Virus record (IMG/VR): IMGVR_UViG_3300025888_000011
Coordinates: 1-64,000 of that record
DNA: 64,000 nucleotides
Strand: one strand, 5' to 3'
Source of the DNA: a virus
A program made the position numbers. Of this stretch, positions 57,001 to 64,000 are shown piece by piece. The first letter of the stretch is position 1. The number at the start of each line of letters is the position of its first letter.

Positions 57001-60000
57001 AATATGAAAACTCCAAAACAAATAGTAGGAATAAAATAAAACTATAATAATATAAAAATATATGTTGCTATTTTATGGAAAGTATGATATAATGAAATAG
57101 TAAGGTAATCAAGATAAATAATTTCTCAGATGCTTTACAAAAATAATATATTAAGAATATAATAATACAAAATAAACAATAAAGGAGAATGATATTAATG
57201 GAAAATCATCAATTATTAAAAGGAATAATTATTAAAAGAGAGGTGACTATCTTTTAATGACAGAGATAAGCTTTGAGGAATTTCAACTTGAAAATATGGG
57301 ACATGCAGATAAATATATAAGTGTAAGGGAATTGAATGAAAAAATACATATGGAAAATGAGAATAAGAAAATCAAATGGATTTATACTGAAAAAGATTGG
57401 GAAAGGAAATCTGAGAAATGGATAATAGGACATGTTTGGGATAGAGCAAAGGGTAGATTTGTTAGTTTGGGAAGTTTAACAAGAGAAATGAATAAGAAAA
57501 GAAAGCTTAAACAGAAGAAAGAGTGATACATATAATAATATAAAATTAATTCAATAAAAATAATACATAAAGGGAGAGAAAAATGGAGTTAAAAATGATT
57601 AATACGAGGGTAGTGACAGTAGAAGAATTAAAGGATATACAGTATTTAGATTTATTTACGCTAACTGAGAAGGCTTATATGGACTATATAGGAACAATCA
57701 AATATGGTAGTAATATAGATTATAATACTGCTAAAAAGAAGATTATAAGAAATATTTTATTAAGTAGAGAAGCTCATGAGAATAAAATTGATAAATGTAA
57801 AAGGCTATTTTATTATGGAAATTTACAAATAATGTTAAATGAAAAAGAGAAGACAATTTGTTTTATTAAAAATACTTTAAATACTGATTATAATTTTAAA
57901 TTAGATGTGGAGAAAAGGAAAACTTTAAATTACATAATGGGATTGAAAAATAATTAAAACAGAGGAGTGGAAACAACATGAGCAATACAATATATAAAAT
58001 AACCTACGATATTGATAATTATGGAGATAAATTTTATCATAAAATAAAAGTCGATAGATACCATTGTCATGAAAAAGATAAATGTATTATTATTCAAAGT
58101 GAACGTAAAAGAATACATAAGGATAAGATAGATATTATTACTGCTATTGAAGGCAACAACACAAGAGGAGTTAGATACTTTGTATGGACTTTGGATGAAA
58201 GTAAAATAGAAATATATAAAGTAAAATTAAAGGAGAAGATATTAAAACAAATAGAAAAATACAAAAATAATATAAGCAATTTAGAAAAAGCATTAGAATT
58301 AGAAGTTACTGTAAAAGAAAGAGATTACTCATACAATGAATAAGAGATAATATAAAATAGTCAATAAATTGAAAGTTTCAATCAGAAAGTAATATTTGAA
58401 TTAAAAGGAGAGATAATAATGAGAATACCATATTTAGTAATAATTAACGATGAGAAATCATTTGTATATACTGATAAGAGGAAAATAAAGAAAATATTTA
58501 ATGAGAAAGATAATATAAAGGTATATGTTTTTAAAACAATTGATAAATATAATTGTTGGGTTGATATATATGAATTATATAAAAATAATAAAGAAGTAGA
58601 AATTAAAATATTTAAAGGTGAAAATGATGCTTTTTATTCTGATTTAGGATGTTCTATAATGAGAAGTTTAGCTAAAGCAGAATGGAATAGTAGTATTAAG
58701 TATCCTGATAATGGATGGCATATTTGTAGTGTTTGTGGGGATATAACAAATAATATAGATAGATGTTTATATTGTGATGAATTTGTTTGTTGGGATTGTT
58801 CACATGAGGTTATAAATAATAGTTATATAGAGGGTGATTTTTGTTCATATGAATGTTATAGAAAATATGGAGAAAAAGAATATAATATAGAGTATAATCC
58901 TGAAAAAGAATATAAAGAAAAAGTTTGTGATAGACTTGAATATATTCTAGGACGTTTTGAAAAAGAACAATTACTTAATGTTTTAATACATTTAGAATCA
59001 TCTGTTTATGATTATGACGAAGATGATGTGAATGAAGTTAATTTAAAATATAAAAACAAATCTAAAGAAGAATTATTAAACATTCTTGAGCGTGATTGTG
59101 ATACTTATGATATTTTAATGAAACTATATGAGGATGAGACGGATGAATATTTATCAGATATATTAGATGGAGAAGGATTTATAAATAATTTAGACCCAAA
59201 TGACCCAGCAGATGAATGGTTCTTTGAAGATTAAAGAAAAGAGAAAGGAGATAATACTGATTATGGCAAAAGCAAAGGTTTATAAAGTTTGTACGGAATG
59301 TAATATAAAGAAAAAAGTAAAAACAGATTTCTTGAATGCAACAAAAGATATATGTTTAGAATGTGCTAAGAAAATAAAAAAGGAAAAAAGAGTAAATACA
59401 TACGCACAAAGAAAAGAAGATGTAACAAAAACTAAAAACTTCACAGGATTTTATATATATAGATTTTTAGATAAAGACGATAATATTATATATGTAGGCA
59501 AAACAACTAATTTCGATAAAAGAATGGAAGTACACTTTGGTAAAGTAAATTATCATGATGTTCTATTAGTAGACGAATCAGAGCCTTGTAGTTTCGAAAC
59601 AAATAAAGAAAGCAGTTATCAATTATTAATGCATCATGGTCATTTAGAAGGCGAATGCTATGAATCAGTTAGAAATGTAGAAAAGATGACTTTAAATAAT
59701 CAATATGAGATGGATATTCTTGAAATACATTTCATTAATAAGTTTAGACCTGAATATAATACAGAATTCAAATACAATAACGTAACAGATTTATTTGATA
59801 TATGTGAACCTAAATGGCTAAGAACTATTAGTTTGATTAATTTAAAAATACACTTTATCAGACTAAATGGTAATACTAAATTATATGATAAAATTTTAGG
59901 AAGTGATGAAATGGTAGATATTGTGGCAAGGAATAAATTTAAAAGCCAAGAAGAATTAATTGAAATGTGTAATAATATAAAATAGGGGGAAAGATACAAT

Positions 60001-63000: not shown

Positions 63001-64000
63001 ATAATAGGGGCTATAACTAACAAAAGCACTACAGGGCATGCAATGTTAACTCATTTAAAAGATACATATGGTATAGAAAGTAGAGAGTATACAACAGTAT
63101 TAGACCGAATTAAGATGTGTACTAAATTGCAAAGTGCCCAAATTGATAAGGCTAAGATAGGAAAAGAGGTAAAAGGGATTCCTAAAACATGGACAGATAG
63201 AAGATATATAGAGAGTTTGGAAATTGATAAAAAAGAGAAAGATTTCTTAAAGTCAATTATGATGGACAGACACCCATACTTTTTTATACATTTATATCCT
63301 GATACAAAGAGAAAATATAAAAAACATATAGAAGGATATAATATATCGTGTGAACATAAATTTGGTATGAATGTTGAAGAGTTAATTTTAAAAGCAGATA
63401 AAACTAAGGAAGAAAATGAATATATAAAAGCATATTATGAATATATGCCTGTAATTTACACTGATGGAGTTGTAAATTCTATATGTAGATATATTGAAAG
63501 TGTTGATTTTAAAATTAGAGAAAAAGTAAGCACTAAATCAGAGGACACTCATTCAATTCTTATGAGAAACGAGAATATTGAGGATGAAGAAGTTTATCAA
63601 GAGATATTAAAAAAATATAAAGTATTTAAAAAAGAATTAAAAAATAATAACAATGTAAAGAATTCAAGTAAGAAACAGAAGTATGATGAGACATTATCAC
63701 AAGAAGTTAATGGAATTTATAAAAAATTTAAAAGTGAAATGGATAAAGAATGCCCTAATACATATGAATTAGTTGATTACTTAATTAAAATATTTTATGT
63801 TGAGTTTCCAAGTGCAAATAAGGATTTATTATGGAATACATATGGTAAATATATATATGATAATTTAAAAAGTAAGAATCAAAATCCTGTATTATTCCCT
63901 TTTCCAAATAAAAAAGGAGACATAGAATATCTTAATCAAAAATTTTTACTCAAGGAGGTAATAATTTAATGGAATTTAAATATAATGAAAAATTATACGG

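What the first reader, a model, noticed from the sequence alone, without database searches (positions are those of the whole stretch)
59999..63969. Group I intron splits the phage single-subunit RNA polymerase inside its catalytic aspartate motif
Seen: the two track ORFs join in frame if 61685-62844 is removed (GAT|TTT), giving 936 aa. P1, P2, P3, P4, P7 and P8 are readable, with a U.G splice-site pair and a terminal G. The GIY-YIG ORF is looped out between the two P4 strands by GTTAAAGTGTGTGTT/AAACACACATTTAAC. Known: phage group I introns favour conserved motifs, mostly in nrd, td, DNA polymerase, terminase and lysin genes. I do not know a described case in a YonO-type RNAP. Inference: the transcription this enzyme drives depends on splicing.
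Basis: partly seen in the sequence, partly recalled or inferred. Interest (0 to 1): 0.72.

Follow-up and report, generated by a model that had tools for sequence, protein, structure and literature searches.

The report
Self-splicing intron inside phage RNA polymerase
A clostridial-type phage carries a 1160-base mobile self-splicing (group I) intron, with its own homing endonuclease gene, exactly inside the catalytic aspartate motif of its YonO-type RNA polymerase gene; this is a real but fairly ordinary example of a common phage habit, in a gene family where it is frequent yet unannotated.

Summary
Removing 61685-62844 joins 59999-61684 to 62845-63969 in frame. The junction ...AGSD|FDFDF... 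aligns without a gap to uninterrupted homologs. A relative with 87%/83% DNA identity is colinear across the junction and lacks exactly these 1160 bases.

The insert matches Rfam group I intron at 43 bits (E 2.7e-9). That is below the 50-bit cut-off, because the ORF separates the 5' strands of P3-P5 from the rest of the core. P1 (U.G at the splice site), P2, P3, P4, P5, P6, P7, P7.1/7.2, P8, P9 and the terminal G can all be placed. P3, P4, two extra hairpins, P8 and P9 covary across six related introns.

It is a GIY-YIG endonuclease by conserved residues, profile match and predicted fold.

The triad codons are an intron hot spot. Insertions lie at -6, 0 and +6 nt, carrying GIY-YIG, HNH or LAGLIDADG genes or none, and one phage has two introns 6 nt apart. 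About 24 of the 120 best database homologs end at this motif.

Phage c-st and SPbeta-like Goe14 carry unannotated introns in this gene. I found no paper describing them. This scan has flagged the same thing in at least five other genomes.

Verdict: new member of a known kind. Splicing itself is inferred, not shown.

The parts
59999..61684 (+). RNAP exon 1 (562 aa), which ends with the first catalytic Asp (..AGSD)
   Evidence: Pfam RdRP PF05183 at 26.1 bits, above its 23.8-bit cut-off. tblastn to SPbeta yonO gives E 5e-15. 87% nt identity to intron-less L005.
61685..62844 (+). Group I intron, 1160 nt
   Evidence: RF00028 at 43 bits, E 2.7e-9, over 62566-62814. Precisely absent from L005. Same architecture as six related introns.
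61680..61698 (+). P1: exon GUGAU (61680-61684) paired with the internal guide GUCAC (61694-61698), with a U.G pair at the 5' splice site. Loop 61689-61692 can form a 4-bp P10 with exon 2 bases +2 to +5.
   Evidence: Read. L082, at the same site, has the same guide sequence GUCAC.
61699..61720 (+). P2, a 9-bp hairpin with a GUAA loop
61726..61732 (+). P3 5' strand, CUUGGUG
   Evidence: Pairs with 62752-62758. The three outer pairs covary in all 7 introns: CUU/AAG, AGU/ACU, CGU/ACG, UCU/AGA, CAU/AUG, UGU/ACA.
61735..61764 (+). Two extra hairpins between P3 and P4: CCUAU-AAAU-AUAGG (61735-61748) and GUGUC-GAAA-GAUGC (61751-61764)
   Evidence: RNAalifold on 7 introns found compensatory changes in 16 of 20 pairs.
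61767..61772 (+). P4 5' strand, ACGGUG, preceded by the conserved UAA
   Evidence: Pairs with UACCGU at 62635-62640. Relatives have ACAGGG/UCCUGU or ACGGGG/UCCCGU, so two positions show compensatory changes.
61783..61797 (+). P5 stem, 5' arm (GUUAAAGUGUGUGUU)
   Evidence: 14 bp plus one bulged G with 62613-62626. It brackets the ORF.
61822..62608 (+). Ribosome-binding site AGGAGG (61822-61827) and the 257-aa GIY-YIG homing endonuclease ORF (61835-62608) in the P5 loop
   Evidence: Invariant residues F18 Y19 G21 K22 G23 R27 E65 N81 across 22 homologs. Profile versus PDB GIY-YIG protein 9u75 gives E 1.1e-4. Top Foldseek hits are GIY-YIG domains of UvrC, PD-T4-3 and I-TevI. Homologs carry NUMOD3 and NUMOD1.
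62613..62626 (+). P5 stem, 3' arm
62635..62640 (+). P4 3' strand, UACCGU, preceded by the J5/4 sequence CAAU
62641..62683 (+). P6 (GCC/GGU), P6a (CC/GG) and P6b (AAUAUAG/CUAUGUU)
   Evidence: Rfam alignment and reading.
62684..62693 (+). J6/7 (GUAAC) and the P7 5' strand (GACUA)
   Evidence: P7 is invariant in 7 introns. Rfam alignment.
62696..62747 (+). P7.1 and P7.2 hairpins between P7 and P3'
   Evidence: Seen as an insertion in the Rfam alignment. The inner stem of P7.2 is supported.
62752..62758 (+). P3 3' strand, UGCCAAG
62759..62790 (+). P8 (CAUCCU/AGGAUG), J8/7 (AAGAGA) and the P7 3' strand (UAGUC, 62786-62790)
62792..62844 (+). P9 region: CCG/CGG closing helix, ACUUC/GAAGU hairpin and UUAC-GAAA-GUAA hairpin, ending in the terminal G at 62844
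   Evidence: Compensatory pairs. 3' splice site.
62845..63969 (+). RNAP exon 2 (374 aa), which begins FDFD and so carries the second and third catalytic Asp
   Evidence: PHROG 8308 positions 551-838

Best explanation
Bases 61685-62844 are a mobile group I intron of the phage IA type. It has P7.1/P7.2 and two extra hairpins between P3 and P4. It is inserted between the first Asp codon and the following Phe codon of the D-F-D-F-D metal-binding triad of a YonO-type single-chain DNA-dependent RNA polymerase. The gene is transcribed as one pre-mRNA. The ribozyme folds, with the P5 stem bringing the two ends of the endonuclease ORF together. An external guanosine attacks after U61684, which lies in the P1 U.G pair. 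The freed exon 1 then attacks after G62844. The ligated mRNA reads ...GGUAGUGAU|UUUGAUUUUGAC... and encodes a 936-aa polymerase. Unspliced RNA gives a 569-aa product that stops 8 codons into the intron and lacks two of the three catalytic aspartates. By analogy with SPbeta, active polymerase, and with it the phage's late transcription, therefore requires splicing. The 257-aa GIY-YIG/NUMOD-type endonuclease is translated from its own ribosome-binding site in the P5 loop. It presumably cuts intron-less alleles of related phages near the GSD|FDFD codons during co-infection, so that repair copies the intron in (homing).

Shown here: the insertion, the junction, the ribozyme architecture with covariation, the family assignment of the endonuclease, and the recurrence of such introns in this gene.

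Inferred: splicing activity, endonuclease activity and target, and dependence of late transcription on splicing.
For: - **Junction:** there is no gap against BUCT082 or 70-odd intron-less loci. The DNA is colinear with L005 and lacks exactly these 1160 nt.
- **Ribozyme:** RF00028 gives E 2.7e-9 in the window search and 6.5e-11 in the own-genome search. The J8/7-P7 consensus AAGAGAUAGUC, P7 GACUA/UAGUC, the U.G pair and the terminal G are present. P3 covaries in 7 of 7 introns and P4 shows compensatory changes. RNAalifold finds compensatory changes in 12 of 21 pairs (3' half) and 16 of 20 pairs (5' half). The 3' core is 80-89% identical to intron regions of Staphylococcus, Enterococcus, Lactobacillus and Bacillus phages.
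- **Host gene:** Pfam RdRP is above its cut-off, and SPbeta yonO matches at E 5e-15. The YonO aspartate triad is catalytic, YonO transcribes the late genes, and YonO is essential for plaque formation (PMC5467207).
- **Endonuclease:**
- **Recurrence:** L082 has an intron at the same site with the same guide sequence but an HNH gene in P6. L053/54/56 and L071 carry introns at +6, L074 at -6, L069 at both 0 and +6, and c-st at +6. 24 of the 120 best protein hits end at the triad.
Against: - The Rfam score of 43 bits is below the curated cut-off of 50, and the whole-window gathering search found nothing.
- Rfam's own alignment places the P3 5' strand wrongly, downstream of the ORF.
- The unconstrained minimum-energy fold pairs the P3 5' strand with a decoy copy of UGCCAAG at 62640.
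- No RNA data exist, so splicing is not shown.
- The endonuclease has no Pfam hit of its own, and the fold matches have weak E-values (0.02 at best).
- The window protein is only about 25% identical to SPbeta YonO, and its triad reads DFDFD rather than DNDGD. Function as the late-gene RNAP is therefore by homology only.
Confidence: 0.88

Rival explanations
1. The intron is a decayed, non-splicing remnant and the polymerase gene is dead, with late transcription supplied by another enzyme.
For: The Rfam score is below the gathering cut-off. The record is only about 74% complete, so a second polymerase gene cannot be excluded.
Against: Every core helix is intact and pairs as in its relatives. Both exons are open over 936 codons and are 83-87% identical at DNA level to an intact relative. 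The endonuclease keeps all invariant residues. The low Rfam score is explained by the 0.8-kb ORF splitting the model.
Confidence: 0.05
2. The polymerase is made as two separate polypeptides (N-half and C-half) that assemble without RNA splicing, as the c-st annotation ('N-ter only', 'C-ter only') would imply.
For: An in-frame GTG at 62836 opens a 377-aa ORF. Split RNA polymerase subunits exist in nature (established knowledge). PHROGs holds separate families for the two halves.
Against: The break falls inside the 5-residue metal-binding loop. No Shine-Dalgarno sequence precedes the GTG at 62836. A complete ribozyme with correct splice-site features sits exactly between the halves. The separate PHROG families are most simply a by-product of gene callers ignoring introns.
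Confidence: 0.04
3. The intervening sequence is another kind of element (intein, group II intron, IS or IStron) rather than a plain group I intron.
For: None specific. IStrons combine a group I ribozyme with a transposase (PMC4227781, listed).
Against: There are stops in the exon frame 8 codons in, so it is not an intein. It has no reverse transcriptase and no transposase, and its only ORF is a GIY-YIG nuclease. The only significant Rfam match is to the group I intron family.
Confidence: 0.01

Closest known systems
PhiPA3 gp210 intron in the virion RNA polymerase beta-subunit gene (Birkholz et al. 2024, PMC11620839)
   Same: It is a putative group I intron with a homing endonuclease gene in a phage RNA polymerase gene, inserted right beside conserved aspartates. 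The endonuclease targets the intron-less allele of a co-infecting relative.
   Different: There the host gene is a subunit of a multi-subunit jumbo-phage RNAP, the aspartates are not the Mg2+ triad, and the nuclease is an HNH nickase. Here the host gene is a single-chain YonO-type RNAP, the site is inside the catalytic triad, and the nuclease is GIY-YIG. Nothing has been tested experimentally here.
T4 td / nrdB and SPbeta bnrdE/F type phage group IA introns with intron-encoded endonucleases such as I-TevI (from established knowledge, not tested against their sequences here)
   Same: Both have an IA-type core with P7.1/P7.2. Both carry a GIY-YIG plus NUMOD-type endonuclease gene looped out of a peripheral helix with its own ribosome-binding site. 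Both insert in a conserved catalytic region of an essential gene.
   Different: The host gene differs. The ORF sits in P5 rather than P6 or P9. Two extra hairpins lie between P3 and P4.
Introns in other YonO-type genes: Clostridium phage c-st CST179/178 (L003 3298-3614), IMG/VR loci L082, L053, L071, L074 and L069, and Bacillus phage Goe14 yonO_2/yonO_1 (L085)
   Same: All interrupt the same gene. Except for the 5' half of the c-st intron, they belong to the same ribozyme family, sharing the motif ..GGUGAAC-hairpin-GUGU.., the UAAC-P4 element and GUUAAAGUA in P9. The insertion sites are at or near the triad.
   Different: The sites differ: -6, 0, +6, and about 85-96 codons downstream. The endonuclease is HNH, LAGLIDADG, GIY-YIG or absent. 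Where relatives carry an endonuclease ORF whose position was read, it sits in P6; here it sits in P5. The public records annotate two genes and no intron.
YonO of Bacillus prophage SPbeta (Forrest et al. 2017, PMC5467207)
   Same: It is a homologous single-chain two-barrel RNAP with a catalytic Asp triad. It sits in the same genomic neighbourhood in SPbeta-like phages, next to an HU-like gene.
   Different: Identity is about 25%. The triad reads DFDFD rather than DNDGD. SPbeta yonO has no intron.

Membership tests
Group I intron (Rfam RF00028) | Covariance-model score at or above the curated gathering score (50 bits) | tested here: not met
   The score is 43 bits with E 2.7e-9, and the gathering search found no hit. 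The model cannot bridge the 0.8-kb ORF that separates the 5' strands of P3 and P4 from the rest. ORF-less relative L069b also scores only 35.8 bits.
Group I intron (Rfam RF00028) | U.G wobble pair at the 5' splice site in P1, and a terminal G at the 3' splice site | tested here: met
   U61684 pairs with G61694 within GUGAU/GUCAC, and G62844 precedes exon 2.
Group I intron (Rfam RF00028) | Conserved core P3-P4-P5-P6-P7-P8 with the P3/P7 pseudoknot and the J8/7 consensus, supported by covariation | tested here: met
   P3 has 7 bp with three covarying pairs in 7 of 7 introns. P4 shows compensatory changes. P7 is invariant and P8 and P9 show compensatory changes. J8/7-P7 reads AAGAGAUAGUC against the consensus AAGAUAUAGUC.
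Group I intron (Rfam RF00028) | Removal restores the host reading frame exactly | tested here: met
Group I intron (Rfam RF00028) | Guanosine-dependent self-splicing | not testable with these tools
   This needs in vitro transcription with GTP, or RNA from infected cells.
Subgroup IA (criterion recalled from Michel and Westhof) | Extra helices P7.1/P7.2 between the P7 5' strand and the P3 3' strand | tested here: met
   About 55 nt (62694-62751) lie between GACUA and UGCCAAG and form two hairpins. The defining criterion is recalled from the literature and was not checked in a paper here. No IA1, IA2 or IA3 assignment was made.
GIY-YIG homing endonuclease | GIY...YIG motifs plus the conserved Arg, Glu and Asn of the catalytic domain | tested here: met
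   The residues are Y5-I-Y7, Y19-V-G21, R27, E65 and N81. They are invariant or nearly so in 22 homologs.
GIY-YIG homing endonuclease | Significant match to the Pfam GIY-YIG model PF01541 | tested here: not met
   The window protein has no hit even at E 10. One of 22 homologs hits at E 0.0044. A profile of the family matches PDB GIY-YIG protein 9u75 at E 1.1e-4.
GIY-YIG homing endonuclease | GIY-YIG fold (beta-beta-alpha-beta-alpha) | tested here: met
   The AlphaFold model has pLDDT above 90 over residues 1-70. The best Foldseek hits are GIY-YIG domains of UvrC (probability 1.00, TM 0.55), PD-T4-3 and I-TevI (TM 0.52-0.58), but E-values are 0.02 or weaker.
GIY-YIG homing endonuclease | Site-specific cleavage of the intron-less allele | not testable with these tools
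   This needs purified protein and an L005-type target.
YonO-type single-chain RNA polymerase | Sequence homology to SPbeta YonO and the RdRP two-barrel family | tested here: met
   tblastn to SPBc2 yonO gives E 5e-15 at 24.5% identity over residues 126-551. Pfam PF05183 scores 26.1 bits, above its 23.8-bit cut-off.
YonO-type single-chain RNA polymerase | Catalytic DxDxD triad | tested here: met
   The triad is DFDFD after the join. Homologs read DFDYD, DFDFD or DFDMD, PMBT24 and c-st read DFDGD and DMDGD, and SPbeta reads DNDGD. The fourth residue is not Gly here.
YonO-type single-chain RNA polymerase | DNA-dependent RNA synthesis and late-gene transcription | not testable with these tools
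   This is known only for SPbeta YonO (PMC5467207).

The most novel reading that the evidence does not exclude
The intron may be more than a passenger. The catalytic-triad codons of YonO-type polymerases would then be a contested site where several intron and endonuclease lineages (GIY-YIG, HNH, LAGLIDADG; sites -6, 0, +6) compete. The endonuclease would act as a weapon that disables the late-transcription enzyme of co-infecting intron-less relatives, as shown for PhiPA3 gp210. Splicing efficiency could also time or gate late transcription.
Probability: 0.2. Interest if true: 0.6.

Novelty: new member of a known kind. Interest (0 to 1): 0.4.

Why it matters
1. **Annotation.** Gene callers split this polymerase into two 'hypothetical proteins' and a third ORF. 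This has happened in public records (c-st in 2005, Goe11/Goe14, and PHROGs 25339 and 35857) and in about a fifth of the best database homologs. Recognising the intron restores a 936-aa enzyme.

2. **Biology.** The only polymerase known to drive late genes in SPbeta-like phages is made here only after RNA splicing. The site, inside the Mg2+-binding triad, is as constrained as a target can be, and that suits a homing endonuclease.

3. **Model system.** This gene family offers a compact natural set for studying intron and endonuclease turnover. It has one target motif, three insertion points 6 nt apart, three nuclease families at two positions in the ribozyme, and a gene with three introns.

None of this changes what is known about how group I introns work.

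Tried and rejected
- The Rfam gathering search of the whole window found nothing. The hit appeared only with E-value thresholds on a short stretch.
- Rfam's placement of the P3 5' strand at 62626-62634 was rejected. The strand at 61726-61732 covaries with P3' in all relatives.
- The unconstrained MFE fold of an ORF-less construct pairs CUUGGUG with a decoy UGCCAAG at 62640. This was rejected on comparative grounds.
- My first idea, that UAGGGU (61745) pairs with GCCCUA (62646) as P4, was rejected. The local hairpin CCUAU/AUAGG covaries instead.
- A MAFFT alignment of the window intron with the c-st intron was uninformative. The 5' half of the c-st intron differs and I did not resolve its structure.
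- The repeat finder did not report the P5 stem, which has a single bulge.
- The endonuclease gave no Pfam hit, only weak PHROG hits, and nothing relevant in a single-sequence PDB search. Foldseek found no match at E <= 0.001.
- The Rfam search found no match in the Goe14 intron region. Its 5' end nevertheless carries the family motif, and the intervening ORF is GIY-YIG.
- Literature searches for yonO plus intron found no relevant paper. The library lacks most subscription journals, so absence is not proof.
- Intein, group II intron, IS and IStron readings were rejected; see the rival explanations.
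Full report
**1. What is in the sequence**

The window is the first 64 kb of a 141-kb IMG/VR virus record. Its closest protein relatives come from Clostridium botulinum and C. haemolyticum genomes.

Three + strand ORFs fill 59999-63969: 59999-61708 (569 aa), 61835-62608 (257 aa) and 62836-63969 (377 aa). The first matches Pfam RdRP PF05183 above its cut-off. It also matches PHROG 8308 positions 59-541, and the third ORF matches positions 551-838 of the same PHROG. The two outer ORFs are therefore halves of one gene.

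Exon 1 translated to 61684 ends ...HGCETDNFAGSD, and 62845 onward begins FDFDFLSTTS.... The uninterrupted gene of Bacillus phage BUCT082 (Spbetavirus) reads ...HGSETMNWAGSDFDYDIIATTS.... The join therefore needs no gap.

Of the 80 related IMG/VR loci in the tblastn test, 73 showed the two halves adjacent with gap 0. At DNA level, the 90%-identical relative L005 aligns to window 59974-61684 and then directly to 62845-64000, with contiguous coordinates on its own side (6186 to 6187). The 1160 bases 61685-62844 are therefore a clean insertion.

**2. The insert is a group I intron**

The gathering-threshold Rfam scan found nothing. A scan of 61600-62950 gave RF00028 at 43 bits, E 2.7e-9, over 62566-62814, and the own-genome search gave E 6.5e-11. 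That alignment shows P6, J6/7-P7 (AACGACUA), an inserted P7.1/P7.2, P3', P8, J8/7-P7' (GAAGAGAUAGUC) and P9. It forces the 5' strands of P3 to P5 into the end of the ORF, which is wrong.

The true 5' half lies upstream of the ORF:
- P1 is GUGAU (61680-61684) paired with GUCAC (61694-61698), with U61684.G61694 at the splice site.
- P2 is a 9-bp hairpin with a GUAA loop (61699-61720).
- The P3 5' strand is CUUGGUG (61726-61732), pairing with UGCCAAG (62752-62758).
- Two extra hairpins occupy 61735-61748 and 61751-61764.
- The conserved UAA is followed by the P4 5' strand ACGGUG (61767-61772), pairing with UACCGU (62635-62640).
- A 14-bp P5 stem (61783-61797 / 62613-62626) has the whole ORF as its loop.
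- The intron ends in G62844.

**3. Comparative support**

Seven of the 80 IMG/VR loci have an insertion at the triad, and phage c-st has one too. Six of these introns (L082, L053, L071, L074, and two in L069) share the window intron's architecture.

- **P3.** It is 7 bp in all seven introns, and its three outer pairs change in a fully compensated way: CUU/AAG, AGU/ACU, CGU/ACG, UCU/AGA, CAU/AUG, UGU/ACA.
- **P4.** It reads ACAGGG/UCCUGU in most introns, ACGGGG/UCCCGU in L069a and ACGGUG/UACCGU here.
- **5' segments.** RNAalifold recovers the two extra hairpins, with compensatory changes in 16 of 20 pairs.
- **3' segments.** RNAalifold recovers P7 (invariant), P7.2, P8 and P9, with compensatory changes in 12 of 21 pairs.

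The 3' core (62769-62852) is also 80-89% identical to intron regions in Staphylococcus, Enterococcus, Lactobacillus and Bacillus phages. P7.1/P7.2 point to subgroup IA. That criterion is from memory and I did not assign a finer subgroup.

**4. The ORF**

The 257-aa ORF has an AGGAGG site 7 nt upstream of its ATG. It has no Pfam hit of its own.

Its 51 database relatives include proteins with NUMOD3, NUMOD1 and I-HmuI-type DNA-binding modules, and one that NCBI names a GIY-YIG nuclease. In an alignment of 22 of them, the invariant columns are F18 Y19 G21 K22 G23 R27 A61 E65 I69 N81 G85 G86, and Y5, Y7 and E8 are nearly invariant. This is the GIY...YIG...R...E...N signature.

A profile of the alignment matches a solved GIY-YIG protein (9u75) at E 1.1e-4 across both motif blocks. 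The AlphaFold model (pLDDT above 90 for residues 1-70) has a beta-beta-alpha-beta-alpha N-domain. Its best Foldseek hits are the GIY-YIG domains of UvrC, PD-T4-3 and I-TevI, together with the I-TevI and I-HmuI DNA-binding domains, although E-values are only 0.02 to 1. I accept the GIY-YIG call with good but not complete confidence.

**5. The host gene and the motif**

The exon-1 protein matches SPbeta yonO by tblastn (E 5e-15, 24.5% identity) and 'yonO: DNA-directed RNA polymerase' of the Goe phages. SPbeta YonO has DNDGD at 535-539.

Forrest et al. showed three things (PMC5467207):
- The 3D>3N mutant of this triad is inactive.
- YonO transcribes the SPbeta late operon.
- A yonO deletion yields no plaques.

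In the window's subfamily the triad reads DFD[F/Y/M]D. The intron lies between D1 and the next codon. Unspliced RNA would give a product with one aspartate and an 8-codon tail.

**6. How common it is, and whether it is known**

Among the 120 best database homologs, 24 are N-terminal fragments of 544-573 aa. They end at GSD, at GSD plus a short read-through tail (KFSRLT, KFLSRNF), or at GSDFD. Five more end at QSAQID(K).

In the DNA loci the insertion sites are as follows:

| Site | Position | Loci and endonuclease gene |
|---|---|---|
| -6 | after ..AD | L074 (HNH-like motif, read by eye only) |
| 0 | after D1 | window (GIY-YIG in P5), L082 (HNH in P6), L069a (HNH) |
| +6 | after D2 | L053/54/56 (HNH), L071 (LAGLIDADG), L069b (no ORF), c-st (no ORF) |

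L069 has introns at both 0 and +6, leaving a 6-nt exon TTCGAT between them. It also has a third insertion after QSAQID.

The cultured phage Goe14 has yonO split after ..FTID by an intron of this family carrying a GIY-YIG gene. It is annotated as yonO_2, a hypothetical protein, and yonO_1. c-st was annotated 'N-ter only / C-ter only'.

I found no paper that describes an intron in yonO, but the library is incomplete. The nearest published case is the PhiPA3 gp210 intron beside conserved aspartates of a jumbo-phage RNAP beta subunit, whose HNH nuclease cripples co-infecting PhiKZ (PMC11620839).

This scan has flagged introns in the catalytic motif of YonO-like genes in at least five other genomes. 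One earlier follow-up reached the same verdict.

**7. Verdict**

It is a new member of a known kind: a mobile IA-type group I intron with a homing endonuclease in a conserved catalytic motif of an essential phage gene.

The host gene family and the density of sites around the triad are of moderate interest, and the main practical consequence is for annotation. Splicing, endonuclease activity and any regulatory or competitive role remain to be shown.

Noticed in passing
L069:6157-7607 (IMG/VR 3300031555_005762): One YonO-type gene carries two group I introns at the triad, of 1108 nt (with an HNH ORF) and 337 nt (no ORF). They are separated by a 6-nt exon TTCGAT (7265-7270) encoding F-D. A third insertion of 342 nt lies after QSAQID.
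   Followed up: partly
L085:4489-5793 (Bacillus phage vB_BsuS-Goe14, OL580764.1): yonO of a cultured SPbeta-like phage is split after ..NNFTID by an intron of the same family. Its 5' end reads ..GUCAGUGAACCUAGAAAACUAGGGUGUG.., and it carries a GIY-YIG ORF. The record annotates yonO_2, a hypothetical protein and yonO_1. Rfam gave no hit there. Goe11 also has a yonO_1 label.
   Followed up: partly
L003:3298-3614 (Clostridium phage c-st, AP008983.1): A 317-nt ORF-less group I intron sits after the second Asp codon (NGMDMD|GDAVIST) of the YonO homolog. The real C-terminal exon is CST178, annotated 'hypothetical'. I did not resolve the structure of the intron's 5' half.
   Followed up: partly
window 59200-59985 (+): A free-standing GIY-YIG ORF of 261 aa (Pfam PF01541, E 2.7e-8) ends 14 nt before the RNAP start codon. 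The block 57958-59973 has no counterpart in the close relative L005, which has an unrelated 724-aa ORF there.
   Followed up: partly
window 62639-62647 and 62751-62759: GUGCCAAGC occurs twice in the intron. The second copy is P3'. The first overlaps the P4 3' strand and the P6 5' strand, and the minimum-energy fold chooses it as the partner of the P3 5' strand. It may be a misfolding trap or chance, and the related introns do not share it.
   Followed up: no
window 61679-61684 versus L005:6181-6186, L022, L006, L020, L001: The intron-bearing alleles at site 0 with guide GUCAC (window, L082) use the Ser codon AGT, so the exon reads GUGAU and pairs with that guide. The closest intron-less alleles use AGC (GCGAU), which would break one P1 pair. 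L007 and L014 have AGT without an intron.
   Followed up: no
L057, L070, L083, L084, L069 (exon-2 residue ~101): A second insertion hot spot lies after the conserved QSAQID, about 96 codons downstream of the triad, with inserts of 274-1193 nt. It appears homologous to the Goe14 site. The window gene is uninterrupted there.
   Followed up: partly
G000, beyond the window end: Earlier notes of this scan report further introns with a variant P7 (GCAUA/UAUGC) about 14 kb past the window end. The RF00028 search of the whole record at E <= 0.001 found only the intron studied here.
   Followed up: no
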